64,000 bases of DNA, taken from IMG/VR virus record IMGVR_UViG_3300036944_000513, positions 37,644 through 101,643 of that record. One strand, 5' to 3'. Numbering within the stretch: the first letter of the stretch is position 1; each line of letters opens with the position of its first letter. The stretch is from a virus (taxonomy: Duplodnaviria > Heunggongvirae > Uroviricota > Caudoviricetes). A program made the position numbers and the translations under genes. Below the pieces are notes generated by a model, which saw nothing but the letters and a program-made list of their open reading frames with translations, did no database searches and was not told the DNA's origin. Below are positions 14,623 to 58,439 of this stretch, piece by piece.

Positions 14623-15549
14623 TTATGCACCAGCAGTCAAGACGTATTTTGCCAAGTTTTTCCAGTCGCCACCATCATCTTCTGCGCGAATTTTTACAGT
14701 AGAAATCAGTGAGCGCAAAGAAAGATTGTCAATTTTATCAGCAACTGATGTAATAAAATCTAGTGCGTCCATCTTGCATTCTAGCGAATACTCGGGCATA
14801 AAATCATCATCCAGCAAAATAGATTCCATGCGCTCAATTTTTTGTGCATCCGTCATGCCCACATCAACGCACATTGCCCGACTGCGAACAGCTTGGTCAA
14901 TTTGCTCGGGCATCATGTTACTGATAAAAATAACCGACCCAGTAAACAAAAAACTACGTGGCAAATCTTCATCTTTCATGTCGGCATTCCATGAAATGTA
15001 ACGCTCACCATAAGAGTCAAGCGCACCCTTCAATAGATTGAGTGCCTTAGAATCTTCCAATACGCTATCGCAGTCATCAAAGATCAAAGTCATTCCATTG
15101 CCCTCAAAAAGAGTGCGATACAATCCTTTTGCAGAACTATAACCCTTAATGAAACGATAACTATTTGAACTTTGAAGTTTGGTTCCTTCTTCAAATTTTG
15201 ATAGATCGCTAACATCTACCATGTTTTGTTTCTTTAACGCTTTGGTAACAGTATGCGTCTTGCCAAGTCCACCCTGACCAGTAATGATTGCTGATGCAAT
15301 AGTTTTCTTTGAAACCATTGTAACCATTTTGGAAACGAACTCGAATCGTTGCGTAATTGAAAACTCTGAGTTTACTTTTTCAGGGGCAACTTTTGTTTGC
15401 ATTTGATCGGCTGGAATGCTTGCACCCAGAGACAATACTTTGCTTTCTACGTGCTGGCGTGATGCCGACCACGATACAATTTTGCCATTAATAAAACCAT
15501 CGTAACGACCTTTTGCGTCATTATAAACTACTGTGCCATTCAATTGCAT
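14623..15549 (-). CDS. P-loop NTPase (AAA-type ATPase) with an N-terminal extra domain
   Basis: Walker A GQGGLGKTH and Walker B LIFDDCD; 308 aa. Confidence 0.6.
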   Translation of the reverse strand: MQLNGTVVYNDAKGRYDGFINGKIVSWSASRQHVESKVLSLGASIPADQMQTKVAPEKVNSEFSITQRFEFVSKMVTMVSKKTIASAIITGQGGLGKTHTVTKALKKQNMVDVSDLSKFEEGTKLQSSNSYRFIKGYSSAKGLYRTLFEGNGMTLIFDDCDSVLEDSKALNLLKGALDSYGERYISWNADMKDEDLPRSFLFTGSVIFISNMMPEQIDQAVRSRAMCVDVGMTDAQKIERMESILLDDDFMPEYSLECKMDALDFITSVADKIDNLSLRSLISTVKIRAEDDGGDWKNLAKYVLTAGA

Positions 15550-17002: not shown

Positions 17003-17032
17003 AGTTTACCAAAATATCGTTTCGTTGTCAAG
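17003..17032 (-). promoter_or_regulatory. sigma70-type promoter (-35 TTGACA, 17 bp, -10 TAAACT)
   Basis: Immediately downstream of the macro-domain gene stop; followed by a GGAGA SD and an ATG. Confidence 0.5.
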
Positions 17033-17495
17033 CAAATTCTACGACAGTTACACTTCCAAAAAAATTACTTTCAATTTTTTCAGAAAATGATTCAAGTAGT
17101 GCCATGATTTTTTCTGAATCGCCGCCAGCCAATCCCATTCCAATCATTGGAAATCCAATCTTTTTATCGTTATAGCGAACAATAAGTTTATTGAGAATTT
17201 TTTCAAATGAATCATATTCAAAAAGGTCTTTCATATCATCGCCACGATTCATGCCATATTGAGTATATGCGTTAACGATAACCAAGTCATGCCAATTACC
17301 AATAGTATAGCAGCCAAGTTTATCGGTATCGCCCCATACACTATGCTGATCTGCTAACCAAGCATCGGGAAAATGCTCTTTAATTTGACGCGCAATGCCA
17401 CCGCCCATTGTATTAAAACAATTTGCGCCATGCACGATAACATCGAATCTACCCTCTTTTGCGAGAGCAATCAAATCACCTTTAATTTTATTCAT
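17028..17495 (-). CDS. macro-domain protein (ADP-ribose / ADP-ribose-1''-phosphate processing)
   Basis: GDLIALAKEGRFDVIVHGANCFNTMGGGIA matches the macro-domain GD...NAAN...GGGV signature. The in-frame ATG at 17495 was used, because the track start is TTG. Confidence 0.65.
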   Translation of the reverse strand: MNKIKGDLIALAKEGRFDVIVHGANCFNTMGGGIARQIKEHFPDAWLADQHSVWGDTDKLGCYTIGNWHDLVIVNAYTQYGMNRGDDMKDLFEYDSFEKILNKLIVRYNDKKIGFPMIGMGLAGGDSEKIMALLESFSEKIESNFFGSVTVVEFA

Positions 17496-17691
17496 CTTTA
17501 AGCTCAAATATTGATTTAATTAAATCCACGCATTCTTGTGGAGTTCCATCTGCAATTTTTACAACATTGCAAGCTATTATTGCATGATCTAAAATATTAA
17601 GTGCAAAATATTCAAGTTCTTCTACTTTAATCCATTTTCCACTGGTATCAGTAGGAACCAGTGAAATGTATTCTTTCAATTGTTTATTCAT
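17488..17691 (-). CDS. hypothetical protein
   Basis: 67-aa ORF. Confidence 0.4.
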   Translation of the reverse strand: MNKQLKEYISLVPTDTSGKWIKVEELEYFALNILDHAIIACNVVKIADGTPQECVDLIKSIFELKDE

Positions 17692-17698
17692 AATATCC

Positions 17699-18163
17699 TT
17701 AATTAATTATAATAATTTCTGAGTAACCTTCATCGGTGGTTGGCATCTGAAATTGAGAAATCATTGAGTCTACCACATTTTTTGGAATATGCTTTCCTGC
17801 CCGACCAGACAATCGTACATCCAATTCATCACGCCTTGGAGTAGGAAATACTACTGCAATATGAGTATATCGTTTCAACATATTGAATTTCTTTTTGCGA
17901 CTGGCAATTGTCGTAGAAGTTTGATCCCAAATAATATCTTTCCCTGTAATGCGCGCATTGATAACATCATCCATCATCAAATCAATTGCAGTTGGCATAT
18001 ATTCAGCAAACACTTCATTATAGGTAAGATCAAGTTTTTTTGCTTGGGCTTCAATATGATGGTCAGTTGAAATATAAACGTAATCCTTCGTGAGAGTTTG
18101 ATTCTTAACCCACGTAGATTTACCAGCAGCAGGGACACCAACTAACACGTATACTTTCAACAT
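17699..18163 (-). CDS. P-loop kinase (polynucleotide-kinase-like / AAA_33)
   Basis: VLVGVPAAGKST Walker A close to the N-terminus; 154 aa. Its size and position next to a phosphoesterase and an RNA ligase suggest a Pnk kinase-domain analogue. Confidence 0.55.
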   Translation of the reverse strand: MLKVYVLVGVPAAGKSTWVKNQTLTKDYVYISTDHHIEAQAKKLDLTYNEVFAEYMPTAIDLMMDDVINARITGKDIIWDQTSTTIASRKKKFNMLKRYTHIAVVFPTPRRDELDVRLSGRAGKHIPKNVVDSMISQFQMPTTDEGYSEIIIIN

Positions 18164-18171
18164 ACTTTCCT

Positions 18172-18717
18172 TTAATGATTATGACGTTTAATTTCGCCCT
18201 TTAATGCCATATCAATCGCCGTACTTAATTGAATTGGATAGCAATTATGATTATCCATACCAACATCAATGCAACGATATTGTTCCATTCCACTTTTGCC
18301 GCCATGCAAATGTCCATGAAAATGAACAGACCCACGATGCATCTGATCCCATTCGCATATGGGGTAATGAAACATTATAACTTTAGTTTTATCAATTGTC
18401 AACGAATAATAATCTTGAATTGCATCAAACTCATTGCAAAATGCTCTGTCGTTTATCAGTTTAACATCATGATTGCCACGAATCAAGGTTTTATTACCAT
18501 TGAGCCGCTTCAAATATCGTACTGCTTTTTCTGCATTACAAAAAGCCACATCACCCAAAATATAGGTATGGTCATTGGGCTGAACTACTGAGTTCCATCG
18601 CCGAATAATTTCTTCATCCATTTTATCCGCATCACCTTCGCCAAATGCCCGTGATACAGGACAAAAGCTCATGATGTTTTTATGCGAAAAATGAATATCG
18701 CTTGTAATAAAATCCAT
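18172..18717 (-). CDS. calcineurin-like metallophosphoesterase
   Basis: Motifs DIHFSH, GDVAF, GNHD and HGHLH. Confidence 0.65.
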   Translation of the reverse strand: MDFITSDIHFSHKNIMSFCPVSRAFGEGDADKMDEEIIRRWNSVVQPNDHTYILGDVAFCNAEKAVRYLKRLNGNKTLIRGNHDVKLINDRAFCNEFDAIQDYYSLTIDKTKVIMFHYPICEWDQMHRGSVHFHGHLHGGKSGMEQYRCIDVGMDNHNCYPIQLSTAIDMALKGEIKRHNH

Positions 18718-18728
18718 AACTATCTTTC

Positions 18729-19097
18729 TTATTTTTGCTCTAATGCCTTAAAAAGCATTTCCCATTTTTCGGCTGGAGTAATTGTACCCATTGCCATTTC
18801 CTTTAATACTTCTTTCATTTCTTCTGGATGTTTAAAGTAAATGTTTGCATAGGTGCAATCAAAATCATCATCATCATCGTAATCATACAAAGGATGCTCT
18901 GACATTTCATCAAAAACATCTTCATAATCCTCGCGGTTTCCACCGCCATTGCGGGTATGAATAACGATATGAGTATCGGTAACATAGGCATCACGATAAC
19001 GACCAAAGTCTCCTTGGGTCTTGCCAAGCAATTCAAGGAGAAATTGAGAATGGTCAAAATTCTCACCAAACAACATATTATACAAACTCATTTTCAA
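18729..19097 (-). CDS. hypothetical acidic protein
   Basis: 122-aa ORF. Confidence 0.45.
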   Translation of the reverse strand: MKMSLYNMLFGENFDHSQFLLELLGKTQGDFGRYRDAYVTDTHIVIHTRNGGGNREDYEDVFDEMSEHPLYDYDDDDDFDCTYANIYFKHPEEMKEVLKEMAMGTITPAEKWEMLFKALEQK

Positions 19098-19145
19098 TCC
19101 TCCAAAAAGTTACGAACCCAAGATAAACGCGAAAATTGCATTTTA

Positions 19146-19153
19146 TATAAATA
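19146..19153 (+). promoter_or_regulatory. T4-type late promoter box TATAAATA
   Basis: Exact TATAAATA about 95 nt upstream of the plus-strand homing endonuclease gene. Confidence 0.4.
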
Positions 19154-19247
19154 AGTATAGCACAACATTTTGTGCGTGTCAACAAAAATGTCCATCGCCG
19201 TACTGGTAATACGCATGGACTCTAACAGTTTAAAAGGAACTATCAGC

Positions 19248-19919
19248 ATGACTATTTATTGCGTCTATCTAACCATATACCGAGGAATAAGACTTCCCCC
19301 ATTTTACATTGGTTCAAGTTCAGTAGAAAAAGTTCAAACCGGCTATCATGGATCAGTATGTTCCAACGAGTATAAGTCTATTTGGAAATCGGAACTTAGA
19401 TTTAACTCTAACTTATTTGAAACAAAAATAATTTCCATTCATTCGAACAGAAAAGAAGCAACTCTTAAAGAACATACGCTTCAAAAGAAAGTCGATGCTG
19501 TTAAAAATCCTCTTTATATTAATAAATCATTTGCTGTATATGATGGTTTTACAGATATGGATCAGTCTGGCAAAAATAACCCAATGTATGGCACCTCCCG
19601 CACCGGAGAAGCAAATCCGTTTTATGGGCAAAAACACACAGAAGAAGCTATTGCTAAGATGAGAGGAAGAAAATGTTCAGATAAAAACAAAAGGTTATAT
19701 AGCAAACTCAAATCGGGCATTACTGACTCTGCGGAAACTAAACAAAAAAAGAGTATATCCAAAAAAGGGAAGCCGCCAAACAGTTCCAAAGTTCTCAACT
19801 TGATATTAAAACAGAAGTTTATCTGTATGCTTGATACTAAGAAAGAATATACCTATGTAAATGCTTGTCAACGGCTCCCTGAGATTAAACATCTTTTTTG
19901 GAAAAAAAAGTTAGTTTAA
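19248..19919 (+). CDS. GIY-YIG homing endonuclease (Seg-like, with NUMOD3 repeats)
   Basis: TIYCVYL...FYIGSS is a GIY-YIG signature; two NUMOD3-like NPMYG / NPFYGQKHTEE motifs. It is on the opposite strand to its neighbours, with an AAAGGAA SD before the ATG at 19248. Confidence 0.7.
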   Translation: MTIYCVYLTIYRGIRLPPFYIGSSSVEKVQTGYHGSVCSNEYKSIWKSELRFNSNLFETKIISIHSNRKEATLKEHTLQKKVDAVKNPLYINKSFAVYDGFTDMDQSGKNNPMYGTSRTGEANPFYGQKHTEEAIAKMRGRKCSDKNKRLYSKLKSGITDSAETKQKKSISKKGKPPNSSKVLNLILKQKFICMLDTKKEYTYVNACQRLPEIKHLFWKKKLV

Positions 19920-20810
19920 AAACTCTCGAACCCACTTCAATTTTTCTTGTTCAGTCTTTGTGGTGTATGCGTCAATATTTTCACGAATCGCAGAAAGCAA
20001 CGGGTAATATTCCTCATCAATTTGTTCTTTAAACTCCTTGGTGAGCAATTTTTCAGTTTTAGGATTGCGTGCTACCCATTTACTTACTAAATAGTAAGGG
20101 CTTTTAATTTTAAAAGACTGACTATCTTCTGTGTATGCAATGAATCCTTCGTGCTTAACCTTCTTTGATTCAGCAATCAATTCACCCACGGTCATACGAT
20201 AAGATTCTACCGGATGACATTTAATTGTATCCTCAGAAAATATCTTCCATACTACATCACAAACAAAGCCGTTAACCTTAGACTCCCATGAGTTTTCACG
20301 CCAGCCAAGAAAATACATTCCTGCTTTTTCTGGGACAATGTGTGGGTCACTTGGATGCACACATTCAAACATGAAAGTATGACCTTCATTGCTGGCAATA
20401 TTGATAACCCAATCCTCCCAGCACATATGCTTTAACATCATTTCTTTTGCATAGTCAACGTAATCGTTGGCAGTGCTTCCAGTGGTGGATATTAAAATAT
20501 CGTTATTGTGCCAAGTCATCGCAATCATAAAGCCATTAACTTTACGATATGCAATTACCGGAGTATCATCCGATAAAATAGGAGATTTATCTTCTACGCC
20601 ATAATTATAGATTTTCGTGAATGGGCGTGATATTACATTGAAATCTTTATCAATGATTGTACCACGACATTCCTCAAGAAAATCGTTCCATAAATTATCA
20701 TAAAATACTTTTTTAGAATATTTTAGTACAAAAATTCCATCACCGGCTGGCTTCATTGAAACCAGAGTTGGATTAGATTCTACGAAATGTTTTAGTGCAG
20801 CTTTGTTCAT
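19911..20810 (-). CDS. RNA ligase 1 (T4 RnlA-like)
   Basis: ECRGTIID / SRPFTKIYN / YRKVNGFM (motif I KxNG) / TTGS align with T4 Rnl1 ECRGIMF / SRPMEKFFN / KEDGSL / SKGS; HEGFIAY (motif IV) and FKIKSP (motif V). Confidence 0.6.
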   Translation of the reverse strand: MNKAALKHFVESNPTLVSMKPAGDGIFVLKYSKKVFYDNLWNDFLEECRGTIIDKDFNVISRPFTKIYNYGVEDKSPILSDDTPVIAYRKVNGFMIAMTWHNNDILISTTGSTANDYVDYAKEMMLKHMCWEDWVINIASNEGHTFMFECVHPSDPHIVPEKAGMYFLGWRENSWESKVNGFVCDVVWKIFSEDTIKCHPVESYRMTVGELIAESKKVKHEGFIAYTEDSQSFKIKSPYYLVSKWVARNPKTEKLLTKEFKEQIDEEYYPLLSAIRENIDAYTTKTEQEKLKWVREFLN

Positions 20811-20816: not shown

Positions 20817-20845
20817 AGTATAACGTAGACTTTACTATGCGTCAA
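20817..20845 (-). promoter_or_regulatory. sigma70-type promoter (-35 TTGACG, 17 bp, -10 TATACT), near-leaderless
   Basis: The -35 overlaps the TGA stop of the upstream gene; the ATG of the ligase gene lies 6 nt after the -10. Confidence 0.45.
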
Positions 20846-21324: not shown

Positions 21325-21520
21325 ACTCGTCTGCTGGATAGTAACGACCCATCTTCAAGTCATCAATATCAACTTCCATGCGCAAAACATTTTCATGGCT
21401 AGATTCGTACATACACAGCAGCCATTCTACGCGCTCAACTACGCTTCCCTCGCGCCAGTCTTTGCTATCCTCAAATAGCTCAGTTGGCAGCAGTTTTTTG
21501 ATTCGGTCTAGTTCGTTCAT
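21314..21520 (-). CDS. hypothetical protein
   Basis: 68-aa ORF. Confidence 0.4.
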   Translation of the reverse strand: MNELDRIKKLLPTELFEDSKDWREGSVVERVEWLLCMYESSHENVLRMEVDIDDLKMGRYYPADEFDK

Positions 21521-21936
21521 TTTAAAAAAGAATTTCTAATTGCAACTGCATCATGGAGAGCATTATGTGGGATTCTTGACTCATATTCAATAGCAAGATT
21601 CAACTCAAAATTAATTTTTGTGGGCATCAAAATTCGTTCACCCGGCCCCGTAATCAAAGACTCACAGAAATATTTAATATCATCGGGCCAATCCGCAACA
21701 ATGGTGCATTTATTGAACATGAAAAGATAGGATGATAGTTTGGATTGGAACTCACCCCTTGAAAGTGGAACATGAAACATATGCGGCACGACATTATCCC
21801 GAACCCAAGGGTCAAGTTGATCTGTCATTTCCAACTCACAATAAAATACTGGAATATTTACATCTTCTGGCACAAGCGCCATAGACATTAGTTTACCACC
21901 AAATCCATTAAATTCTGTATCTAAAAATAGTTTCAT
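21517..21936 (-). CDS. DEDD-family 3'-5' exonuclease (DnaQ/RNase T-like)
   Basis: Exo I LDTEFNG and Exo III HNALHDA motifs. Confidence 0.6.
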   Translation of the reverse strand: MKLFLDTEFNGFGGKLMSMALVPEDVNIPVFYCELEMTDQLDPWVRDNVVPHMFHVPLSRGEFQSKLSSYLFMFNKCTIVADWPDDIKYFCESLITGPGERILMPTKINFELNLAIEYESRIPHNALHDAVAIRNSFLK

Positions 21937-22268
21937 TTTTCTATCCTATCATATTTAAATTTTTCATGCAACATAATAATATAATTTGCTTTAGCAAAAA
22001 CCCATGGATTTCGATGCGGAAGATGGTTTCCGGTTGCGCCAGTCCAATCTTTAAATTCCCAATCGTAAAAATCAATATTACAATCCTTTGGATTTTCTTT
22101 CTGCAAAGTTTCTAATTCATCTGCCCATTTTTGCCATAAGTGGTCACTCACTATTTCCGTATTCAGTTCATAGTAGATACATGAATGAATAAGCATTTGT
22201 GCCCTTCGCTGCCGTATCTTATCTTTAATGCTTTGCTGCATACTCATTTCAAAAATATCGACTATCAA
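21933..22268 (-). CDS. hypothetical protein
   Basis: 111-aa ORF. Confidence 0.45.
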   Translation of the reverse strand: MIVDIFEMSMQQSIKDKIRQRRAQMLIHSCIYYELNTEIVSDHLWQKWADELETLQKENPKDCNIDFYDWEFKDWTGATGNHLPHRNPWVFAKANYIIMLHEKFKYDRIEK

Positions 22269-22655: not shown

Positions 22656-22879
22656 TCTTCAACTCCGAAATGTTTATCAACCTCATCAAAGATATCATCA
22701 ATGTCTCGTTCAGGGTCATGAGGATTCATTTCCTCAATAACGCTTAAACATTCCTTCACAATCAACTCGGCGAATCTAACTTCTTTTGGCATATACGTCA
22801 GCATATCAAAATCATCAAGATTGCCCTGCCCATAAATCATACCTGCTTCTTTAGCAAGTTCTAAGATTCGTTTGTTCAT
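22652..22879 (-). CDS. MNxRIKELAEQAG / FAELIVKEC / HFGVEE family small protein (paralog)
   Basis: MNKRILELAKEAG...RFAELIVKECLS...KHFGVEE. Confidence 0.6.
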   Translation of the reverse strand: MNKRILELAKEAGMIYGQGNLDDFDMLTYMPKEVRFAELIVKECLSVIEEMNPHDPERDIDDIFDEVDKHFGVEE

Positions 22880-23385
22880 TTTTCAACTCCAATATATCGT
22901 TTAGCTTCTGCCATGAGAGTTGCATCGCCCTTAGTTAATACTTCAAGGAGCAATCTTTTTTCTTCAAGATATACAACTGCAAAGTTTGGGTCATACTGCA
23001 TAATACTTTTCGTATTACTAATCAAGTCTGCAAGTTTAACTGTTTGCGCTTCTGCTGGAGCATTGAAAATATACTCTCTGTCCATGCGCTTGCGAAATTC
23101 TCTGTTACCATATTCTGGTTTAGAGATATCGGTCAACCAACCAACCAATCCAGCAATAATACTGCCAAATTCTTGGGTAATAATTTCGTTGGTAACTTTA
23201 GTATCTTCTACAACATCATGCAGCCATGCAGCAGCAATCATATCAGGAGTGCCACCCACACGTTTTACGATGCTGGCAACTTCTGCTGGATGGACGATAT
23301 AAGGCGCACCAGTGTATTTCCTGCGCTGGTCAACGGCTGCGTGTGCAGCGGTGGCAAAAATCCTTGCCTTTTCCACTTTGTCCAT
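22876..23385 (-). CDS. HD-domain (p)ppGpp hydrolase-like protein (small alarmone hydrolase, RelA/SpoT HD family)
   Basis: ATAAHAAVDQRRKYTGAPYIVHP...AAWLHDVVEDT matches the SpoT/Mesh1 HD hydrolase signature. Confidence 0.65.
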   Translation of the reverse strand: MDKVEKARIFATAAHAAVDQRRKYTGAPYIVHPAEVASIVKRVGGTPDMIAAAWLHDVVEDTKVTNEIITQEFGSIIAGLVGWLTDISKPEYGNREFRKRMDREYIFNAPAEAQTVKLADLISNTKSIMQYDPNFAVVYLEEKRLLLEVLTKGDATLMAEAKRYIGVEK

Positions 23386-25239: not shown

Positions 25240-25721
25240 TCAATCCGTTCCTCATATACAGTTGTTGGCGTATATGGGAATTCTACTGCAACTCGGCTCT
25301 CTCTGCAAGTAAAATGTGATTTACTTTTTACGCCTGTTTCTGGGTCGGTATACCAATCCCAAAAAACTTTACCGTCAATATCATATGCGCTGCCATCGGC
25401 ATCTTTAAAAACCCTACTGGCGCGTTTATTTTGATAGTGAGGTGTGCCATCGCCATACCCTGAAACATCTACCCATTCGTCATCTTCACCAGTAAGTGGG
25501 GTCAATGGATCAAATCTAAGGAGTTTTTCAAGCACATTAACAGCATAACTTGCAGAGAATCCAGAAAATCCAGAATTACTAAATACTAATATGATATTCA
25601 AAATAGATTCCCGCATCATGCGATTTATTTCATCGGGAGAATCTTCGGTCATTCCAATAATATCCAACTCTCGCTTACTAAATTCAATCATAAAACTATG
25701 CCCCATATAAAAATTAAACAT
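25236..25721 (-). CDS. hypothetical protein
   Basis: 161-aa ORF. Confidence 0.45.
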   Translation of the reverse strand: MFNFYMGHSFMIEFSKRELDIIGMTEDSPDEINRMMRESILNIILVFSNSGFSGFSASYAVNVLEKLLRFDPLTPLTGEDDEWVDVSGYGDGTPHYQNKRASRVFKDADGSAYDIDGKVFWDWYTDPETGVKSKSHFTCRESRVAVEFPYTPTTVYEERIE

Positions 25722-26642
25722 ACTTGCACGGATAGAACACCATATACCTATTTAATTGGCTGGTCAAACATGAATATATATTATTATGGTAGACGAACCG
25801 CAAAAAATTGTCATCCCAGTGATCTATTTGTGACTTATTATACATCATCAAAATATGTCTGTCAACATATAAAAGACCACGGAATCCCCGATATTATTAA
25901 AATTAGAAAAACATTTAATTCAATAAAAAAATGCATTCGTTGGGAAGAAAAAGTTTTAAAAAAATTAGATGCAAAAAATCATAAGCAATTTTTGAATCAC
26001 TCAAATGGGCCAAATGATTTTCATAGCACCAATAAAGTAGCAGTTAAAGATATGAATGGAAATATATTTTTTGTATATACAAATGATCCAAAATTTATAT
26101 CAAAAGAATACGTTGCACTATCAAAGGGAAGAAAATATTCTAAAGAAATTAATTCAAAAAAGGCGTGTGCAATTGGAAAGGTTGCGGTTAAAGATAAGGA
26201 TAATAATTATTTTCAAGTGTTAAAGACCGATCCCCGATATATTTCAGGAGAATTAATCCCAGTTGCAACTGGAAATAAAAGGACTAAAGATCAAAATAAA
26301 AATTGTGGAAAACATATGGTTGGATTTCTTCTTGCAAAAGATTTAAATGGGGATACACTAAAAGTAAAAAAAGATGATCCATTAATTATTTCCGGAGGTT
26401 TAATTCCAATTGGAACTAATATGCCAATGGCAAAAGATTTAAATGGAAAAATATTTAGAACTACGCGAGATGACCCAAGGTGGCTCACTGGAGAAATAAT
26501 AAACCCAAATACAGGAAAAAGTTTTAATAAGGGCATATCAAAACCAAAATTATTATGCCCACACTGCGATAAATTAATTGCAATTAATATGTTCAATAGG
26601 TATCACGGGGATGCATGCAAATTAAAATCAATATTTGAATAA
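25698..26642 (+). CDS. repeat protein, possible degenerate GIY-YIG-type homing endonuclease with five ~35-aa tandem repeats
   Basis: N-terminal YTYLIGWSNMNIYYYGRR (GIY...YIG-like spacing); five repeats of KD(L/M)NG......DP(R/K)(Y/F)ISGELIP..TG; opposite strand to its neighbours. Confidence 0.4.
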   Translation: MPHIKIKHTCTDRTPYTYLIGWSNMNIYYYGRRTAKNCHPSDLFVTYYTSSKYVCQHIKDHGIPDIIKIRKTFNSIKKCIRWEEKVLKKLDAKNHKQFLNHSNGPNDFHSTNKVAVKDMNGNIFFVYTNDPKFISKEYVALSKGRKYSKEINSKKACAIGKVAVKDKDNNYFQVLKTDPRYISGELIPVATGNKRTKDQNKNCGKHMVGFLLAKDLNGDTLKVKKDDPLIISGGLIPIGTNMPMAKDLNGKIFRTTRDDPRWLTGEIINPNTGKSFNKGISKPKLLCPHCDKLIAINMFNRYHGDACKLKSIFE

Positions 26643-33561: not shown

Positions 33562-34101
33562 TTACTTTTCTCCTTTTGCTAAAATTAGATTTTTACCAGT
33601 CTGCCAAATGCATTCTTCCAGAATTAAACCTTGTTTTACCGTTCCATCACATAAAATATGATATAAAGATTGAACAGTAATTTCAAATTCAACTCCCCGT
33701 GGATCTAAAATTTTAAACAATTTATTTCCACGATAACGATTCACTGTGTCAATCAATTTAAATCCACTGAGAGGAACATTATCCCATATTCGGGGAGCAT
33801 AGTCAAGCTCAATTGGTCTATCAAACTTAATTTCATTGCGTTGGCGAGTAACGGAGTCATATGCAAATGTTGATCCCCTTTCCCACCATTCGTTTCCATT
33901 TTTATATGCAGTTCCAGTATAAGCCCAATGCATTTGCGTTTCTTTACGCGCAGCATCGGTTTTTTTATTTGGTTCATGTGGATGAAGAAACCCAAAATTA
34001 TGGGATTCTTCATTATATGTATTCCAATCACCTTTAATTGGATAACTACGCTCAGAACGATTCTTTGAAACTACAAATATTTTATCTGGAATTTTAGTCA
34101 T
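33562..34101 (-). CDS. hypothetical protein
   Basis: 179 aa; ATGA overlap with the ligase gene. Confidence 0.5.
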   Translation of the reverse strand: MTKIPDKIFVVSKNRSERSYPIKGDWNTYNEESHNFGFLHPHEPNKKTDAARKETQMHWAYTGTAYKNGNEWWERGSTFAYDSVTRQRNEIKFDRPIELDYAPRIWDNVPLSGFKLIDTVNRYRGNKLFKILDPRGVEFEITVQSLYHILCDGTVKQGLILEECIWQTGKNLILAKGEK

Positions 34102-35144
34102 TGCGTTTCTCCAAGCAAATATTTGTTGCTGATGCTTTTAAAAGTCATTCCCCCCGCAACATGCTTAAACACAATACCTTCACGCTCCACACTAGGATTC
34201 AGTTTAGACTTATCCTCCGCCCATTGTAGAATTTCTTCCACTGAACCAACGCCAAGGTCTTTATCTACAAACAATACGGGGACATGAAGTAGTTCAAGAG
34301 AATCTACAAAATGACGCCTTACTGCTGGCTCAAAATATTTGCCGCTATTGATATGGTAGCAATCAAATACGCGAAACTCTGGCTTAGATAGCTTATAGAT
34401 ATTACCCTGAATTCCGGGGCCAATCAATTCACCTTGAATAGCAATATCATATGGCAAAGACATAATCTTTTCCTTAATATTGTTTTCAATTGCAGCTTTC
34501 CAGAATGCGTTATTCTCATCTTCCTTCAAGTCAAGATTGCGTGAGCATACACCAAATGTATCACCAATCTTATATACAGTCATCGAAGAGCCTTCCAGCT
34601 TTTCAGTGACTTCAAAGTGCATAGTCTTACATGCTGCAATTTCTTTGGTAAGATTTTGGGCACGTTCTTGATCGGTCTTAGGAATCAGTGATGGGAAGTT
34701 ACCCTTTGCCATGCCAGCCAACTGAGCATTCATAGGCTTTTCCCACTTTTGAATGCCAAGCAGTTCAGATACATCTTGCTCCATAGTAACTGTCCATTTG
34801 TGCGGGCTACCGTTGGCGTCAATGCCATGGATGAAGTTGCCAACTGATGTTTGATAAACCGGTAGCAACAGACCCTGAGACAATTGACCGCGCAACTTTA
34901 CAGTACGCAGACGTTCGCCTTTCACTCCATCGTATTCCCGTGGTTCTTTGCCTTTGCTAAGAAAAGGCGCCAACGCTGTAGGCACCCATGAATCGATCTC
35001 CAAATAAACTGCAAGCTCTCCAACATTATATTCGCCTTTTTTAACAACAACTTTCCAACCACCCACGGTTGCGCATTCAATAGCATCTGCACCCTCGATA
35101 GGATTCAGTGCATCAATCTTTCTAATAGTAGCTAATTTTCTCAT
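34098..35144 (-). CDS. RNA ligase, Rnl2/DraRnl-type (second RNA ligase)
   Basis: N-terminal MRKLATIRKIDALNPIEGADAIECATVGGWKVVVKKGE resembles the N-domain of DraRnl-type ligases; motif-I-like EVTEKLEGSSM (KxxG[ST]). Confidence 0.5.
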   Translation of the reverse strand: MRKLATIRKIDALNPIEGADAIECATVGGWKVVVKKGEYNVGELAVYLEIDSWVPTALAPFLSKGKEPREYDGVKGERLRTVKLRGQLSQGLLLPVYQTSVGNFIHGIDANGSPHKWTVTMEQDVSELLGIQKWEKPMNAQLAGMAKGNFPSLIPKTDQERAQNLTKEIAACKTMHFEVTEKLEGSSMTVYKIGDTFGVCSRNLDLKEDENNAFWKAAIENNIKEKIMSLPYDIAIQGELIGPGIQGNIYKLSKPEFRVFDCYHINSGKYFEPAVRRHFVDSLELLHVPVLFVDKDLGVGSVEEILQWAEDKSKLNPSVEREGIVFKHVAGGMTFKSISNKYLLGETQ

Positions 35145-35748: not shown

Positions 35749-36168
35749 TTAATTCCTGTTAAGATAATCAACTGCCTTCATCACGCCTTCAAGTGTATCA
35801 CCAAGAGACCCAATAGATTTATTACAATCATCGCATAACCAGCCCCTGAATGTTTTAGTAATCGGGTCATGATCTAGAACAAGTCCCCGTATTCTTCTAT
35901 TCGGATTTGCATTTGGGCCACTGTTTGGGGCTTTGCCACAACACTCGCACACACTTGTTTTTGGTGGCGCGGTTAGTCTAATTTTCTCTACTTCTTTACT
36001 TCGCGTTTTAATGCATACCCGGCATCGAGTATCATGCCCATCGGAAATATGTGAATGCTTTGGAAAATCAGTTAACGGCTTATCTTCTTTACAGTATATG
36101 CAGGATTTGGTTGTAACTTCATGTTCTCCAAATACTGTATTAACTTTCAACTGCGCCACCAATAACAT
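35749..36168 (-). CDS. endonuclease VII-family protein (T4 gp49-like Holliday-junction resolvase)
   Basis: LVLDHDPITKTFRGWLCDDCNKSIGSLGD matches the EndoVII signature (LDHDH...RGLLC..CN...G), with an N-terminal Cys cluster. Confidence 0.6.
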   Translation of the reverse strand: MLLVAQLKVNTVFGEHEVTTKSCIYCKEDKPLTDFPKHSHISDGHDTRCRVCIKTRSKEVEKIRLTAPPKTSVCECCGKAPNSGPNANPNRRIRGLVLDHDPITKTFRGWLCDDCNKSIGSLGDTLEGVMKAVDYLNRN

Positions 36169-36649
36169 GATATTTCAACTTAGCTGCTTGATATGCTTCA
36201 CTGGCTAGTTCTGGGGTTTCATAGTGACCAAGGCAAATATCCTTGCCATTCAACATAATTCGTGCCCGCCAAGAACGAGATTTATATTTAGACACACCCA
36301 AATATCCAGATTTTGCTAAAATCTTGTTGATATTAAATTGATTTTCCTGATTGGTAACATCCCGCAAATTACTGAGTTTATTATTTGATCTATTTCCGTC
36401 AATATGATCAATATGATTGGTAGGCCATTTTCCATAAGTAAATAGCCAAGCCAAACGATGGGCGCGATAACTTTTAAAATTAAACTTAATACCAATATAC
36501 CCACGGCTTAAACTACCAATAATATCACCCACTTTAGATTTAGATTTCAATTTAACTTTAATCCAAGTAAAATGACCCGTCTCTGGGTCATAAGACAAAT
36601 ATTGTTTCATTTCTTCCAACAGAGCCGTAACATCATCAACTTTATCCAT
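36140..36649 (-). CDS. HNH homing endonuclease with an AP2 DNA-binding domain
   Basis: HRLAWLFTYGKWPTNHIDHIDGNRSNNKLSNLR (HNH) and GYLGVSKYKSRSWRARI (AP2-like). The in-frame ATG at 36649 has a GGGGGA SD. Confidence 0.6.
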   Translation of the reverse strand: MDKVDDVTALLEEMKQYLSYDPETGHFTWIKVKLKSKSKVGDIIGSLSRGYIGIKFNFKSYRAHRLAWLFTYGKWPTNHIDHIDGNRSNNKLSNLRDVTNQENQFNINKILAKSGYLGVSKYKSRSWRARIMLNGKDICLGHYETPELASEAYQAAKLKYHVIGGAVES

Positions 36650-36712
36650 GCGTCCCCCAATTTTATAAGATTCCAAAGTGTATACTAATTTTACCCGATT
36701 GTCAACTACTTT

Positions 36713-43946: not shown

Positions 43947-44774
43947 TCAACTGATCGCACATGGAAATACCAATTCCTGAACAATTTCTTCTGCGGAGTA
44001 GCTGCTATAATAGCCCAAGTTTTTAAGTTTAGAATTATCCATGTACATTGACTTCACCTGTACAATTTTATGGAAGTCTGCCTGCGGAATATTCTTGATC
44101 TGAGATGTTGACAATGATATTTTTTTAGCATATCTAATAATATCACCAAAGTTCACTGGAATCCCATTGCCAACATTATAAATTGTATTATACTCGCCAA
44201 CAGTTACAATCATGTTGATTGCTCTACACAAGTCTGATACATGAATATAATCACGATAAAAATCACCGTTATCGTATAATTCAATATCTCTATTTGCGCT
44301 AATTTCATTAACAAGATATGTTAATGCATTTTTCTTTTTCGATACTTTTTTATCGTTTCCACCAACTACATTTGCAAATCTCAAAATGCGATACTTTATA
44401 TTAAAGGTTTCGCAGTATGAGATAAGCAACTGTTCAGCGGTGCGTTTGGTGATGGAATAAAATCCTTTTGGATTACATGGTGATGTTTCTTTTGCTGGCA
44501 ATTCGGTATCACCATAAACAAACCATGAACTAACAAAATTGAAAACTGTGTCAGGATTATCCTTACACTTTTCTAATACTCGCATGAGAGTTGTTAGATT
44601 AGTTTCAATATCTATAAAAGGATTTGTTGAAACCGAATAGTTATCAACTGTAGAAATCATGTATAAAATATCATTTAACTTTGGGGTCAAATCATTTCTA
44701 TCATTGACGATGCACATATACTTAGAAGCATATGCTGAACCAACATACCCCTTTCCACCAAACACATTAATCAT
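43947..44774 (-). CDS. NAD(P)-dependent SDR epimerase/reductase (nucleotide-sugar modifying)
   Basis: GGKGYVG Rossmann motif and a YSITK catalytic YxxxK. Confidence 0.55.
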   Translation of the reverse strand: MINVFGGKGYVGSAYASKYMCIVNDRNDLTPKLNDILYMISTVDNYSVSTNPFIDIETNLTTLMRVLEKCKDNPDTVFNFVSSWFVYGDTELPAKETSPCNPKGFYSITKRTAEQLLISYCETFNIKYRILRFANVVGGNDKKVSKKKNALTYLVNEISANRDIELYDNGDFYRDYIHVSDLCRAINMIVTVGEYNTIYNVGNGIPVNFGDIIRYAKKISLSTSQIKNIPQADFHKIVQVKSMYMDNSKLKNLGYYSSYSAEEIVQELVFPCAIS

Positions 44775-44783
44775 AATAAAATC

Positions 44784-45038
44784 TTATTGGTTAATAAATT
44801 CCATAAATGCAGTTTTAGTCATTCCACCAATCTTACGATGAGTCTCGACTCCATTTTCATCAAGTAAAACCAATGCAGGAATACTTCTGATATTGAATTT
44901 ATTTGCCATTTCAGTATTTTCGTCAATGTCAATATTTTCAAGTTCTACTGGCAACTCTTGAGAAATTCCGGCAATAGTATCTGACAACATTTTACATGGT
45001 TGGCACCATGTTGCATGGAACTTTAAAACTTTTTTCAT
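44784..45038 (-). CDS. thioredoxin-like protein
   Basis: WCQPCK active site; in-frame ATG with an ATGA overlap to the upstream gene. Confidence 0.65.
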   Translation of the reverse strand: MKKVLKFHATWCQPCKMLSDTIAGISQELPVELENIDIDENTEMANKFNIRSIPALVLLDENGVETHRKIGGMTKTAFMEFINQ

Positions 45039-58361: not shown

Positions 58362-58439
58362 AATTTTTCATTCTGTAGTCAAAGGGGGTTAATGTAAGCG
58401 TCAATTATAATATAGCTTTAATATAATATCAATACATAT

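What the first reader, a model, noticed from the sequence alone, without database searches (positions are those of the whole stretch)
17028..20810. Split RNA-repair module: RNA ligase 1, metallophosphoesterase and P-loop kinase, co-transcribed with a macro-domain protein
On the minus strand, in transcription order, lie an Rnl1-like ligase (19911..20810), a 122-aa ORF, a calcineurin-type phosphoesterase (18172..18717), a P-loop kinase (17699..18163), a 67-aa ORF and a macro domain (17028..17495). T4 repairs host-cleaved tRNA with Pnk (kinase plus HAD phosphatase) and Rnl1. Here the end-healing functions appear to be separate genes, and the phosphatase is of the metallophosphoesterase type, as in bacterial Pnkp, not the T4 HAD type. 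The adjacent macro domain is unexpected. Macro domains hydrolyse ADP-ribose-1''-phosphate, a by-product of 2'-phosphotransferase-dependent RNA ligation, and also reverse ADP-ribosylation of proteins and nucleic acids. Either role would make this an extended anti-defense or RNA-repair cassette. A second, Rnl2/DraRnl-like ligase lies at 34098..35144. A Seg-like GIY-YIG endonuclease is inserted on the opposite strand inside the module (19248..19919).
Basis: partly seen in the sequence, partly recalled or inferred. Interest (0 to 1): 0.7.

Follow-up and report, generated by a model that had tools for sequence, protein, structure and literature searches.

The report
Split phage RNA-repair cassette with macro neighbour
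An uncultured T4-like phage carries separate genes for an RNA ligase, a polynucleotide kinase and a metallophosphoesterase that most likely repair host-cut tRNA. This arrangement is common in related phages and has been predicted before, while the adjacent macro-domain gene is an ordinary T4 Tk.4-type gene that usually sits with NAD-salvage genes.

Summary
All six minus-strand ORFs and the opposite-strand homing endonuclease lie at the stated coordinates with the stated domains. The RNA-repair reading is well supported. A profile of the kinase family hits only polynucleotide/tRNA kinases strongly (Pnkp1 1.6e-12, T4 Pnk 9.5e-10). The kinase and phosphoesterase genes lie within 1.5 kb in 37 of 52 dereplicated relatives. 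An RNA ligase (Rnl1 or Rnl5) lies within 4 kb in 9 of 25 loci with adequate flanks. Two corrections follow. The phosphoesterase belongs to the uncharacterised aq_1665 clade, not the bacterial Pnkp clade. The second ligase is a true DraRnl/Rnl5. Two members were missed. The 122-aa ORF is a highly conserved dark protein that usually sits just upstream of the phosphoesterase. A SpoT-like HD hydrolase lies inside the cassette in relatives and 2 kb upstream here. The macro protein is a homolog of T4 Tk.4. It lacks the DarG/TARG1 catalytic lysine. In about 60% of clusters it is embedded in NAMPT/NMNAT NAD-salvage operons. Its adjacency to repair genes recurs but is not clearly above chance, and the window holds no Tpt1/KptA. 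Iyer et al. (2021, 2022) predicted similar neighbourhoods. Verdict: a new variant of a known kind, of moderate interest.

The parts
19911..20810 (-). Rnl1-like ATP-dependent RNA ligase (299 aa); lacks most of T4 Rnl1's C-terminal tRNA-specificity domain
   Evidence: Pfam RNA_lig_T4_1 1e-13 and phrog_562 4e-50. The alignment to T4 Rnl1 conserves motif I KxxG (KVNG vs KEDG), motif III (FMFE vs ANFE), motif IV (EGFIA vs EGYVA) and motif V (FKIKS in both). NCBIfam T4 RnlA equivalog scores 49.5 bits against a cutoff of 242. Only about 57 residues follow motif V, against about 125 in T4.
19133..19946 (.). 814-bp insertion carrying a free-standing homing endonuclease gene and a substitute 3' end for the ligase gene
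   Evidence: L085 positions 74-1011 match window 20884-19947, and L085 1012-4344 match window 19132-15800, at 86-88% identity. The stretch between is absent from L085.
19248..19919 (+). Homing endonuclease ORF (223 aa from this start; an upstream TTG at 19170 is possible), with a NUMOD3 motif and a GIY-YIG-like N-terminus by eye
   Evidence: Pfam NUMOD3 3e-8; phrog_10820 4e-29; phrog_314 3e-19. No solved-structure match.
19094..19132 (-). Remnant of the ancestral ligase 3' end (...RLSWVRNFLED*), displaced by the insertion
   Evidence: Near-identical to the L085 ligase 3' end. The window ligase now ends ...KLKWVREFLN* at 19911.
18729..19097 (-). orf122: highly conserved uncharacterised protein, a cassette member in relatives
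18172..18717 (-). Calcineurin-type dinuclear metallophosphoesterase of the aq_1665 clade; inferred 2',3'-cyclic phosphodiesterase / 3'-phosphatase
   Evidence: Metallophos 3e-6 and phrog_547 3e-53. Family profile hits 1XM7 at 1.5e-23, then GpdQ at 3e-3. Invariant DxH, GD, GNHD, H117 and GHxH. Within 1.5 kb of the kinase in 37 of 52 clusters.
17699..18163 (-). Standalone P-loop kinase of the polynucleotide 5'-kinase clade (154 aa)
   Evidence: AAA_33 6e-16. Family profile: Pnkp1 1.6e-12, T4 Pnk 9.5e-10, PSTK 2e-8, C. thermocellum Pnk 1.6e-7; small-molecule kinases at 1e-3 or weaker. K15/S16, D34 (T4 D35) and R121 (T4 R126) are conserved. The T4 R38 equivalent is not.
17488..17691 (-). orf67: lineage-specific small ORF between kinase and macro
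   Evidence: No family hit. Present as a 69-aa ORF only in the close relative L085. Not detected in other loci.
17028..17495 (-). Standalone macro-domain protein (155 aa from ATG 17495), homolog of T4 Tk.4; SCO6735/Poa1p-like
   Evidence: Pfam Macro 1e-4 and phrog_335 7e-45. AF2 pLDDT 88, with macro folds at TM about 0.7. Profile: Poa1p 1.5e-6, SCO6735 1.6e-5 over the full length, DarG 6.6e-5 with its catalytic Lys aligned to invariant Q79. T4 Tk.4 at 36.5% identity.
22876..23385 (-). SpoT/RelA-type HD hydrolase (small alarmone hydrolase-like); lies inside the cassette in relatives and 2 kb upstream of the ligase here
   Evidence: NCBIfam spoT_relA 1e-23 over the hydrolase region, and Pfam HD_4 2.5e-16. 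Lies between phosphoesterase/kinase and Rnl1 in 10 of 80 kinase-seeded and 22 of 80 orf122-seeded loci.
21933..22268 (-). Solo Nlig-Ia NAD+-binding domain protein (neighbour, not a demonstrated member)
   Evidence: Pfam PF22745 4e-26. Also found near the cassette in L173. Solo Nlig-Ia proteins in 81 phages are described in PMC9503650.
34098..35144 (-). Second RNA ligase, DraRnl/Rnl5 type (N-terminal OB domain plus nucleotidyltransferase)
   Evidence: PHA02142 OB 3e-30 and RNA_ligase 7e-27. NCBIfam RNA_lig_DRB0094 197.6 bits against a cutoff of 151. Homologs directly abut the kinase in L067, L074 and L082 and abut orf122 in L181.
20817..20845 (-). Promoter-like site immediately upstream of the ligase ATG
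   Evidence: TTGACG-17-TATACT, 10/12. A consensus match only.
18374..18402 (-). Perfect sigma-70 consensus inside the phosphoesterase gene, about 210 nt upstream of the kinase
   Evidence: TTGACA-17-TATAAT, 12/12. A consensus match only.
17003..17031 (-). Promoter-like site directly after the macro stop codon, marking the likely start of the next unit
   Evidence: TTGACA-17-TAAACT with TG, 10/12. A consensus match only.

Best explanation
The block is a phage RNA (most likely tRNA) end-healing and end-sealing cassette built from separate small genes.

Inferred pathway:
- The aq_1665-type metallophosphoesterase opens and removes the 2',3'-phosphate.
- The Pnk-clade kinase phosphorylates the 5'-OH.
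- The Rnl1-like ligase, or the Rnl5 ligase encoded 14 kb away, seals the break.

Shown here by computation: the domain identities, the clade of the kinase, intact catalytic motifs, and conserved same-strand linkage in many related phages. Inferred: the substrates and the order of the reactions.

Two further proteins belong to the cassette in relatives:
- orf122, a highly conserved protein of unknown fold-function. It probably acts as an accessory subunit or a new end-processing enzyme working with the phosphoesterase.
- A SpoT-like HD hydrolase. It may remove 3'-(pyro)phosphates, for example from tRNA CCA ends modified by toxSAS defences.

The macro protein is a Tk.4-family ADP-ribose-derivative hydrolase whose usual partners are NAD-salvage enzymes. 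In this lineage it lies at the 3' end of the same tightly packed unit. It is most likely a co-expressed but functionally separate early counter-defence or NAD-ADPr housekeeping enzyme, not a step in ligation.
For: - Domain calls.
- Kinase clade: the family profile hits Pnkp1 1.6e-12, T4 Pnk 9.5e-10, PSTK 2e-8 and CthPnk 1.6e-7, against 1e-3 or weaker for small-molecule kinases.
- Phosphoesterase: a complete dinuclear metal-site motif set is invariant.
- Ligase: nucleotidyltransferase motifs I, III, IV and V are conserved against T4 Rnl1.
- Kinase-seeded synteny: phosphoesterase in 67 of 80 loci, always on the same strand. After dereplication, 37 of 52 clusters have it within 1.5 kb. Of 25 clusters with at least 4 kb on both flanks, 19 have the phosphoesterase and 9 have a ligase within 4 kb.
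- The kinase abuts either Rnl1 or Rnl5 in different lineages.
- The same trio occurs in the cultured phages RSP15, Hena1 and rV5-like phages.
- orf122: an RNA-repair gene lies within 4 kb in 34 of 61 clusters, with canonical order orf122-MPE-HD-Rnl1.
- HD: SpoT hydrolase match 1e-23. SAH enzymes reverse tRNA CCA pyrophosphorylation (bioRxiv 10.1101/2021.04.30.441581), and a phage SAH neutralises toxSAS (PMC9712102).
- Macro contexts: 35 of 59 clusters have NAD-salvage genes only within 3 kb, and 5 have RNA-repair genes only.
- Macro homology: T4 Tk.4.
- Literature: Iyer et al. predicted comparable ligase-kinase-phosphoesterase neighbourhoods (PMC9503650 section 3.7.3; PMC7824862 section 3.4.9).
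Against: - No enzyme of this exact cassette has been assayed, so all substrates are inferred.
- The kinase family lacks the equivalent of T4 Pnk Arg38, an essential residue that contacts the substrate (alignment).
- The phosphoesterase clade has no characterised member, and MPEs also hydrolyse nucleotides and ADP-ribose derivatives.
- Only about a third of kinase loci with adequate flanks have a ligase nearby.
- The ligase lacks most of the T4 Rnl1 C-terminal domain that confers tRNA specificity.
- orf122 homologs in cultured distant phages (Geobacillus E3, Xanthomonas phiXF1, Microbacterium Merry) have no RNA-repair neighbours.
- Macro is joined to repair genes at 0-8 nt junctions in three lineages, which could reflect real coupling that this explanation underrates.
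Confidence: 0.6

Rival explanations
1. Extended cassette. The macro protein is a working part of RNA repair. It either disposes of ADP-ribose-1''-phosphate made by a 2'-phosphotransferase step, or strips ADP-ribose from RNA ends or bases so that they can be healed and sealed.
For: - Macro is the last gene of the same tightly packed unit (8-nt overlap with orf67), and this is conserved in L085.
- L067 has an ATGA overlap between macro and kinase. In L115 and L117 macro starts directly after the Rnl1 stop.
- Repair-adjacent macros occur at about seven separate places in the family tree.
- The best sequence match in the PDB is Poa1p, the yeast Appr-1''-p phosphatase.
- KptA-2H-Macro RNA repair is an established idea (PMC9503650).
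- Chained loci such as L121 link NAD salvage, macro, Rnl5, phosphoesterase, kinase and Rnl1.
Against: - No Tpt1/KptA, 2H or sirtuin is in the window.
- A metallophosphoesterase that removes the phosphate leaves no 2'-phosphate for a transferase to act on.
- Macro lies within 4 kb of the kinase in only 1 of 25 well-flanked kinase clusters and within 3 kb of repair genes in 6 of 59 macro clusters. This is roughly what random placement in a T4-like early region would give (my rough estimate).
- There is no repair-specific macro subclade.
- T4 Tk.4 is not next to rnlA or pseT.
Confidence: 0.17
2. The kinase, phosphoesterase, HD hydrolase, macro and Nlig-Ia genes form a nucleotide/ADP-ribose signal- and alarmone-degrading counter-defence cluster. 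It would act on cyclic nucleotides, (p)ppGpp/(p)ppApp and ADPr derivatives. The ligase is only a neighbour.
For: - The HD protein matches the SpoT hydrolase domain.
- MPEs include ADP-ribose and 2',3'-cNMP hydrolases (abstracts of PMC3407115 and PMC4334965).
- Macro, Nlig-Ia and NAD-salvage genes recur around the cassette.
- Iyer et al. argue that phage Macro and Nudix domains mainly target soluble ADPr derivatives (PMC9503650 section 3.7.4).
- Most kinase-phosphoesterase pairs have no ligase within 4 kb.
Against: - The kinase profile is specific for polynucleotide/tRNA kinases by many orders of magnitude.
- The kinase directly abuts Rnl1 or Rnl5 in several unrelated arrangements. A ligase within 4 kb in 9 of 25 clusters is well above what 1-2 ligase genes per genome of about 170 kb would give (my rough estimate).
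- A kinase has no obvious role in signal degradation.
Confidence: 0.12
3. DNA-end repair. The kinase and phosphoesterase heal 5'-OH/3'-phosphate DNA breaks, as mammalian PNKP does, in support of replication or recombination genes in the same region.
For: - T4 Pnk and Pnkp-family kinases also act on DNA (established knowledge).
- The window is the replication/recombination region, with polymerase, helicase and UvsX.
- In Hena1 and rV5-like phages an ATP-dependent DNA ligase lies a few genes downstream.
Against: - The linked ligases are RNA-ligase families (Rnl1, Rnl5), not DNA ligases.
- The best kinase match is the RNA-repair enzyme Pnkp1.
Confidence: 0.05
4. There is no functional unit. These are unrelated early accessory genes that happen to be neighbours in a hyperplastic region.
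For: - Gene order around the cassette is fluid.
- Homing endonucleases are frequent in the window.
- T4-like early regions pack unrelated small genes tightly (established knowledge).
Against: - Kinase-phosphoesterase linkage (37 of 52 clusters within 1.5 kb) and the recurrent orf122-MPE-HD-Rnl1 order are far beyond chance.
- The trio also recurs in taxonomically distant cultured myoviruses.
Confidence: 0.04

Closest known systems
Phage T4 Pnk (PseT) plus Rnl1 (RnlA) tRNA repair pathway
   Same: Same logic: 5'-kinase, 3'-end phosphoesterase and an Rnl1-family ligase encoded by a T4-like phage. The kinase profile matches the T4 Pnk kinase domain (9.5e-10) with K15, S16, D35 and R126 equivalents. 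The ligase keeps all the nucleotidyltransferase motifs of T4 Rnl1.
   Different: The kinase is a standalone 154-aa protein. The phosphatase is a separate metallophosphoesterase instead of the fused HAD (DxDxT) domain. The T4 R38 equivalent is missing. The ligase is 75 aa shorter, lacks most of the C-terminal tRNA-specificity domain, and scores far below the RnlA equivalog cutoff.
Bacterial Pnkp/Hen1 and Pnkp1-Rnl-Hen1 RNA repair systems
   Same: They use a Pnk-clade kinase (Pnkp1 is the best solved-structure match, 1.6e-12), a binuclear metallophosphoesterase for 2',3'-phosphate removal, and an ATP-dependent ligase. In Pnkp1-Rnl-Hen1 the ligase is a separate polypeptide.
   Different: The phosphoesterase belongs to a different MPE clade, with no detectable similarity to the Pnkp phosphatase. 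The ligase is Rnl1-type. No Hen1 methyltransferase was seen. All three activities are on separate proteins.
Sirtuin-centred phage RNA-repair neighbourhood, type 2 (Escherichia phage V5 / Proteus phage Mydo), predicted by Iyer et al. 2022
   Same: [quoted passage not shown] I saw the same trio in 'ime' (rV5-like), Hena1 and RSP15.
   Different: The window has no sirtuin, and no MazG or cREC was recognised. Its kinase is only 19-23% identical to the Hena1/RSP15 type. It adds orf122, a SpoT-like HD and a macro gene. Iyer et al. state that their sirtuin neighbourhoods are not coupled to Macro.
T4 Tk.4 / S. coelicolor SCO6735 / yeast Poa1p macro domains
   Same: The macro protein is 36.5% identical to T4 Tk.4. 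It aligns over its full length with SCO6735, sharing the Gln at the TARG1-lysine position and the P-x-IG-x-GLAGG loop. It shares the H-x-x-N-C...G-G-G-I-A N-terminal motif with Poa1p.
   Different: No member of the Tk.4 family has a reported activity in the papers I could search. The aromatic residue of the Poa1p G-I-F-G loop is Ala here. Unlike DarG2 and AdfM, there is no catalytic lysine and no toxin-binding domain.
Phage NAD+ reconstitution pathway 2 (NAMPT + NMNAT; KVP40 NadV/NatV)
   Same: About 60% of macro-family clusters sit between, or beside, an NMNAT-Nudix gene and NAMPT, sometimes with PRPP synthetase. The cultured Vibrio phage P018-4 is one example.
   Different: The window contains no NAMPT, NMNAT or PrsA. 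The NARP papers I read do not mention a macro gene.

Membership tests
Rnl1 (T4 RnlA) RNA ligase family | Covalent nucleotidyltransferase motifs I (KxxG), III, IV and V | tested here: met
   Alignment to T4 Rnl1: KVNG/KEDG, FMFE/ANFE, EGFIA/EGYVA, and FKIKS in both. Pfam RNA_lig_T4_1 at 52.1 bits against a cutoff of 28.3.
Rnl1 (T4 RnlA) RNA ligase family | C-terminal all-helical tRNA-specificity domain; equivalog-level similarity to T4 RnlA | tested here: not met
   The protein is 299 aa against 374 for T4. The alignment ends at residue 242. NCBIfam TIGR02308 scores 49.5 bits against a cutoff of 242.
Polynucleotide 5'-kinase clade (T4 Pnk / CthPnk / Pnkp1) | P-loop GxxGxGKS/T, catalytic Asp general base, lid RxxxR arginines; profile similarity to Pnk kinases over other P-loop kinases | tested here: met
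   Profile hits: Pnkp1 1.6e-12, T4 Pnk 9.5e-10, CthPnk 1.6e-7, against 1e-3 or weaker for small-molecule kinases. K15, S16, D34, R117 and R121 are conserved.
Polynucleotide 5'-kinase clade (T4 Pnk / CthPnk / Pnkp1) | Arg equivalent to T4 Pnk R38 / CthPnk R41, which contacts the acceptor nucleotide | tested here: not met
   The aligned position is Ile/Val in this family (alignment).
Polynucleotide 5'-kinase clade (T4 Pnk / CthPnk / Pnkp1) | 5'-OH polynucleotide kinase activity | not testable with these tools
   Requires a biochemical assay.
Bacterial Pnkp phosphatase / lambda-phosphatase MPE clade | Sequence membership in that MPE clade | tested here: not met
   The family profile hits only aq_1665 (1.5e-23) and GpdQ (3e-3). 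No Pnkp or lambda phosphatase chain appears at E<=0.1.
Calcineurin-like metallophosphoesterase superfamily | DxH, GD, GNH[DE], H and GHxH metal-binding motifs | tested here: met
   Invariant D7, H9, G55, D56, G81, N82, H83, D84, H117, G135, H136 and H138. Pfam Metallophos at 28.3 bits against a cutoff of 21.5.
DraRnl / Rnl5 RNA ligase family (second ligase) | N-terminal OB domain plus nucleotidyltransferase domain; equivalog score | tested here: met
   PHA02142 OB 3e-30 and RNA_ligase 7e-27. TIGR02306 at 197.6 bits against a cutoff of 151.
Macro domain superfamily | Macro fold with a GxG-containing ADP-ribose-binding loop | tested here: met
   AF2 pLDDT 88. Foldseek hits to BT1257, DarG, Poa1p and TARG1 at E about 1e-7 and TM 0.63-0.73. 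Invariant N25, G31, G33, G119, G121 and G125.
DarG2 / TARG1 / AdfM-type ADP-ribosyl glycohydrolases | Catalytic lysine (Taq DarG K80; TARG1 K84) | tested here: not met
   The DarG 'PTKK' lysine aligns with family-invariant Gln79 in 'NAYTQ'. NCBIfam DarG scores 20 bits against a cutoff of 250.
Poa1p-type ADP-ribose-1''-phosphate phosphatase in a Tpt1-dependent pathway | Co-occurring 2'-phosphotransferase (Tpt1/KptA) or 2H/cREC enzyme that generates the substrate | tested here: not met
   None was found among window ORFs of 130 aa or more by Pfam. The rest of the genome is unseen.
Poa1p-type ADP-ribose-1''-phosphate phosphatase in a Tpt1-dependent pathway | Poa1p-like active-site residues (His of the HxxNC motif) | tested here: inconclusive
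   His22 aligns with the Poa1p His in 'HSCNC'. Only residues 2-48 align well, and the loop aromatic residue is Ala.
Iyer et al. type-2 sirtuin RNA-repair neighbourhood | Sirtuin gene linked to the ligase, kinase and cREC genes | tested here: not met
   tblastn with Hena1 and 'ime' Sir2 proteins finds nothing in the window. No SIR2 Pfam hit. orf122 is not Rec-like.
RelA/SpoT-homolog small alarmone hydrolases (HD gene 22876-23385) | HD_4 / SpoT hydrolase domain | tested here: met
   TIGR00691 1e-23 over hydrolase positions 3-125. Pfam HD_4 at 60.2 bits against a cutoff of 27.2.
Phage NAD salvage operon (NARP2) accessory gene | Adjacency of the macro gene to NAMPT and NMNAT | tested here: not met
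   Met for the family (36 of 59 clusters within 3 kb), but no NAMPT, NMNAT or PrsA is in this window.

The most novel reading that the evidence does not exclude
The cassette is a multi-lesion tRNA restoration system whose core includes a previously unrecognised component. orf122 (about 120 aa, 1,590 clusters at 50% identity, with relatives in mimiviruses) would be a new RNA-end-processing enzyme or an obligatory subunit of the aq_1665-type phosphoesterase. The SpoT-like HD would remove toxSAS-installed 3'-pyrophosphates from tRNA CCA ends. The Tk.4-type macro would clear ADP-ribose from RNA or feed ADP-ribose derivatives back to NAD salvage. One early operon would then counter anticodon nucleases, tRNA pyrophosphorylation and NAD/ADP-ribose-based defences together.
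Probability: 0.2. Interest if true: 0.75.

Novelty: new variant of a known kind. Interest (0 to 1): 0.45.

Why it matters
Phage RNA repair has been studied biochemically almost only through the fused T4 Pnk and T4 Rnl1 enzymes. This work shows that a fully split version is widespread in uncultured T4-like phages. It consists of a standalone Pnk-clade kinase, an uncharacterised metallophosphoesterase clade and a short Rnl1, usually together with a SpoT-like hydrolase and a strongly conserved protein of unknown function.

This gives concrete, cheap targets for biochemistry:
- a possible new 2',3'-phosphate-removing enzyme family;
- a candidate accessory factor (orf122);
- a testable link between tRNA cleavage repair and reversal of tRNA pyrophosphorylation.

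Separately, the T4 Tk.4 macro family turns out to be a frequent third gene inside NAMPT/NMNAT operons. That suggests an untested ADP-ribose-recycling step in phage NAD reconstitution.

Tried and rejected
- Close DNA relatives in GenBank phages: none (megablast and blastn).
- A single-sequence macro scan of IMG/VR found nothing until an alignment was used.
- orf122 function from domain fusions: ten longer relatives have no Pfam domain.
- orf122 context in cultured distant phages: uninformative.
- orf122 as the cREC domain: rejected, because the model is beta-hairpin/helix and ferredoxin-like, not Rec-like.
- The HAD fusion at 45478-46845 as a T4-type Pnk phosphatase: rejected, because it is a beta-phosphoglucomutase-like HAD fused to a sugar-1-phosphate nucleotidyltransferase.
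- dNMP or small-molecule kinase identity for the kinase: rejected on profile evidence.
- DarG2/AdfM-type function for the macro: disfavoured by the missing catalytic lysine.
- GIY-YIG confirmation for the endonuclease: no Pfam or PDB support beyond NUMOD3.
- Burroughs & Aravind 2016 (NAR), likely the most relevant survey, is not held in the library.
- The terminator scan was not informative (3 found, 4.7 expected).

Full report
**1. Observation**

The window is part of an uncultured T4-like myovirus.
- Its DNA polymerase is at most about 49% identical to those of cyanomyoviruses.
- The region has no DNA-level relative among deposited phages.

- Ligase 19911-20810: RNA_lig_T4_1.
- Phosphoesterase 18172-18717: Metallophos.
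- Kinase 17699-18163: AAA_33.
- Macro 17028-17495: Macro.
- Opposite-strand ORF 19248-19919: a NUMOD3 homing endonuclease.
- Second ligase 34098-35144: PHA02142 OB domain plus RNA_ligase.

NCBIfam places the second ligase above the equivalog cutoff for DraRnl (197.6 bits against 151), so it is Rnl5 and not Rnl2. The first ligase is far below the T4 RnlA equivalog cutoff.

Genes are packed with gaps of 11, 8 and 7 nt and an 8-nt overlap.

**2. The endonuclease is an insertion**

A metagenomic contig (L085) carries a macro protein 86% identical to the window's. It has the order ligase, orf120, phosphoesterase, kinase, orf69, macro, with no endonuclease.

At the DNA level L085 is collinear with the window at 86-88% identity on both sides, and the window has 814 extra bases (19133-19946).
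- The insert brings a substitute 3' end for the ligase (…KLKWVREFLN*).
- The ancestral end (…RLSWVRNFLED*) survives as a remnant just upstream of orf122.
- The ligase reading frame is intact (299 aa against 300 aa in L085).

**3. What the enzymes are**

*Kinase.* A profile of the kinase family hits only polynucleotide/tRNA kinases strongly.
- Pnkp1 1.6e-12.
- T4 Pnk 9.5e-10.
- PSTK 2e-8.
- *C. thermocellum* Pnk 1.6e-7.
- Gluconate, shikimate and nicotinamide-riboside kinases appear only at 1e-3 or weaker, and a deoxynucleoside kinase at 0.03.

The P-loop Lys/Ser, the general-base Asp (D34, equivalent to T4 D35) and the lid Arg (R121, equivalent to T4 R126) are conserved. The equivalent of T4 R38 is not, which is a caveat.

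*Phosphoesterase.* It keeps every metal-binding motif. Its only relative among solved structures is the uncharacterised Aquifex aq_1665 (1.5e-23). It shows no similarity to the Pnkp phosphatase or to lambda phosphatase. 'As in bacterial Pnkp' is therefore true only at superfamily level.

*Ligase.* It conserves nucleotidyltransferase motifs I, III, IV and V. It has only about 57 residues after motif V, so most of the T4 Rnl1 tRNA-specificity domain is absent.

**4. Linkage**

I seeded 80 IMG/VR loci with the kinase and searched them with all window proteins.
- The phosphoesterase is present on the same strand in 67 of 80 loci.
- Rnl1 is present in 22.
- An HD gene is present in 10.
- orf122 is present in 9.
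- Rnl5 is directly beside the kinase in 3.
- Macro is present in 2.

After dereplication (52 kinase clusters at 95% identity) the phosphoesterase is within 1.5 kb in 37. Among the 25 clusters with at least 4 kb on both flanks, within 4 kb:
- 19 have the phosphoesterase.
- 9 have an RNA ligase.
- 1 has macro.

The same trio occurs in the cultured phages RSP15, Hena1 and rV5-like phages. The kinase-phosphoesterase pair is therefore the core, and it associates with either type of RNA ligase far more often than 1-2 ligase genes per genome of about 170 kb would predict (my rough estimate).

**5. Missed members**

*orf122.* It has 957 homologs, the best 120 of which are 63-94% identical. This is more conserved than the enzymes around it. 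It has no Pfam domain and no name, and it carries many invariant polar residues, including an H-T-R-x-G-G-G-N-R motif.

In 61 dereplicated orf122-seeded clusters, 34 have healing and/or ligase genes within 4 kb.
- The usual order is orf122, phosphoesterase, HD, Rnl1 (then kinase).
- orf122 often lies 20-40 nt upstream of the phosphoesterase.
- In L181 it lies 5 nt upstream of Rnl5.

Attempts to assign a function gave nothing.
- Its model (pLDDT 83) has only generic ferredoxin-like matches.
- Viral structure matches are uncharacterised proteins of Tupanvirus, Mimivirus (L792) and crAss-like phages.
- The family spans 1,590 clusters at 50% identity.
- Longer relatives carry no known domain.
- In cultured distant phages it has no RNA-repair neighbours, so the linkage claim is limited to the T4-like environmental clade.

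*HD gene.* The protein at 22876-23385 matches the SpoT/RelA hydrolase domain (1e-23). In relatives it lies between the phosphoesterase and Rnl1.
- Small alarmone hydrolases can reverse tRNA 3'-CCA pyrophosphorylation by toxSAS toxins. Their authors liken this to the 3'-phosphatase activity of T4 Pnk (bioRxiv 10.1101/2021.04.30.441581).
- A phage SAH neutralises toxSAS (PMC9712102).
- A tRNA 3'-end role for this gene is therefore a reasonable inference, not a demonstrated one.

**6. The macro gene**

The family has more than 2,500 homologs. It occurs in 2,665 deposited phage records, including T4, where it is Tk.4. In T4 it lies between *vs* and *tk* and is not near *rnlA* or *pseT*. tk.4 orthologs were noted as A1pp-domain proteins in 2006 (PMC1524935).

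Contexts in 80 macro-seeded loci:
- NAMPT is nearby in 50 and an NMNAT-Nudix gene in 46, typically in the order NMNAT-Nudix, macro, NAMPT.
- After dereplication (59 clusters), within 3 kb: 35 have NAD-salvage genes only, 5 have RNA-repair genes only, 1 has both, and 18 have neither.

Evidence that the repair adjacency recurs:
- A rough NJ tree without bootstrap support shows repair-adjacent macros at about seven separate places, interleaved with NAD-linked ones.
- Junctions of 0-8 nt to repair genes occur in three lineages.
- Some loci chain NAD salvage directly to the repair cassette, for example L121.

The adjacency therefore recurs, but its frequency is about what random placement within a T4-like early region would give (my rough estimate).

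Active-site evidence:
- The DarG/TARG1 catalytic lysine aligns with an invariant Gln.
- The only full-length PDB match is SCO6735, which lacks the TARG1 catalytic pair yet removes Glu-linked ADP-ribose in vitro (PMC8120803).
- Poa1p matches best, but only over the N-terminal motif.

The window contains no Tpt1/KptA, 2H, sirtuin, NAMPT or NMNAT.

**7. Literature**

- Iyer et al. [quoted passage not shown]
- The same paper notes that phage Macro genes may lie in early regions with RNA-repair functions. It reports Macro domains in about 41% of myoviruses.
- Iyer et al. 2021 (PMC7824862, section 3.4.9) note that calcineurin-like and HD-like phosphatases substitute for HAD phosphatases in a few jumbo phages.
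- The NARP papers I read do not mention a macro gene.
- I found no biochemical study of this split cassette, of the aq_1665 clade, of orf122 or of Tk.4.

**8. Verdict**

The RNA-repair interpretation is supported by the clade assignment of the kinase and by conserved synteny.

The 'extended cassette with an unexpected macro domain' reading is only weakly supported. The macro gene is ordinary, is mainly NAD-linked, and lacks the partner enzymes that the proposed chemistry needs.

The cassette is a new variant of a computationally known kind.

Noticed in passing
L087 6512-9862; L089; L090-L168 (e.g. L097 6962-9893); L248 3163-6075: The T4 Tk.4-type macro gene is a frequent third gene inside phage NAD-salvage operons, in the order NMNAT-Nudix, macro, NAMPT, sometimes with PRPP synthetase. 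It is found in about 60% of dereplicated macro clusters and in the cultured Vibrio phage P018-4. The NARP1/2/3 papers I read do not mention it.
   Followed up: partly
window 21933-22268 (-): A standalone Nlig-Ia NAD+-binding domain protein (PF22745, 4e-26) lies between the HD hydrolase and the ligase. A 70% identical copy lies near the cassette in L173. Solo Nlig-Ia proteins were proposed to be NAD+ sensors by Iyer et al. 2022.
   Followed up: partly
window 19094-19132 and 19911-19946 (-): The homing-endonuclease insert duplicated and diverged the last ~12 codons of the ligase gene. The functional gene uses the insert's copy, and the ancestral copy remains as a remnant. This would fit an endonuclease target site that has been altered in the invaded allele.
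   Followed up: partly
window 14623-15549 (-); L170 7115-7990; L171; L175; L216; L067 8147-9055; L077-L081: A 308-aa AAA-type ATPase of unknown function (phrog_1250) recurs near the kinase and, in several loci, immediately upstream of orf122. It may belong to the wider neighbourhood.
   Followed up: no
window 21517-21936 (-); L077-L081, L142, L148, L153: A 139-aa protein (phrog_2259, annotated 'RNase H'; no Pfam hit) recurs within about 1-2 kb of the kinase or within about 0.1-4 kb of the macro gene in several loci.
   Followed up: no
window 43947-46845 and 53771-63579: A large nucleotide-sugar and glycosyltransferase cluster in a T4-like phage. It holds two epimerase/dehydratases, a HAD plus sugar-1-phosphate nucleotidyltransferase fusion, a DegT aminotransferase, GT1, GT2 and GT4 transferases, DUF707 and an FkbM methyltransferase. 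The strand switch near 60.5 kb coincides with the change of GC-skew sign.
   Followed up: no
window 25698-26642 (+), 35749-36168 (-), 36140-36676 (-): Further mobile-nuclease genes: HNH endonucleases and an endonuclease VII-like gene. Two of them sit just upstream of the Rnl5 ligase region.
   Followed up: no
window 58838-58912 and 59684-59760 (-): Two phage tRNA genes, tRNA-Arg(TCT) and tRNA-Met(CAT). No larger tRNA array is present in this window.
   Followed up: no
window 18374-18402 (-): A perfect 12/12 sigma-70 consensus (TTGACA-17-TATAAT) lies inside the phosphoesterase coding sequence, about 210 nt upstream of the kinase start. It could be an internal early promoter for kinase, orf67 and macro.
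   Followed up: no
BFVD hits to the orf122 model: orf122 has uncharacterised relatives in giant viruses (Tupanvirus at 40% identity, Mimivirus L792 at 30%, Megavirus) and in crAss-like phages. One metagenomic protein (P0270, 773 aa) shows four separate matches to the orf122 profile.
   Followed up: partly
L178, L182, L184, L186, L198, L220, L231, L238; L086-L087: A DUF2828/DUF7788 protein of about 470-490 aa recurs a few kb from orf122 and from the NAD-salvage/macro genes in T4-like contigs. Its function is unknown to me.
   Followed up: no
window 61830-62624 (+): A second, unrelated calcineurin-like metallophosphoesterase (264 aa) lies on the plus strand within the glycosyltransferase region.
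   Followed up: no
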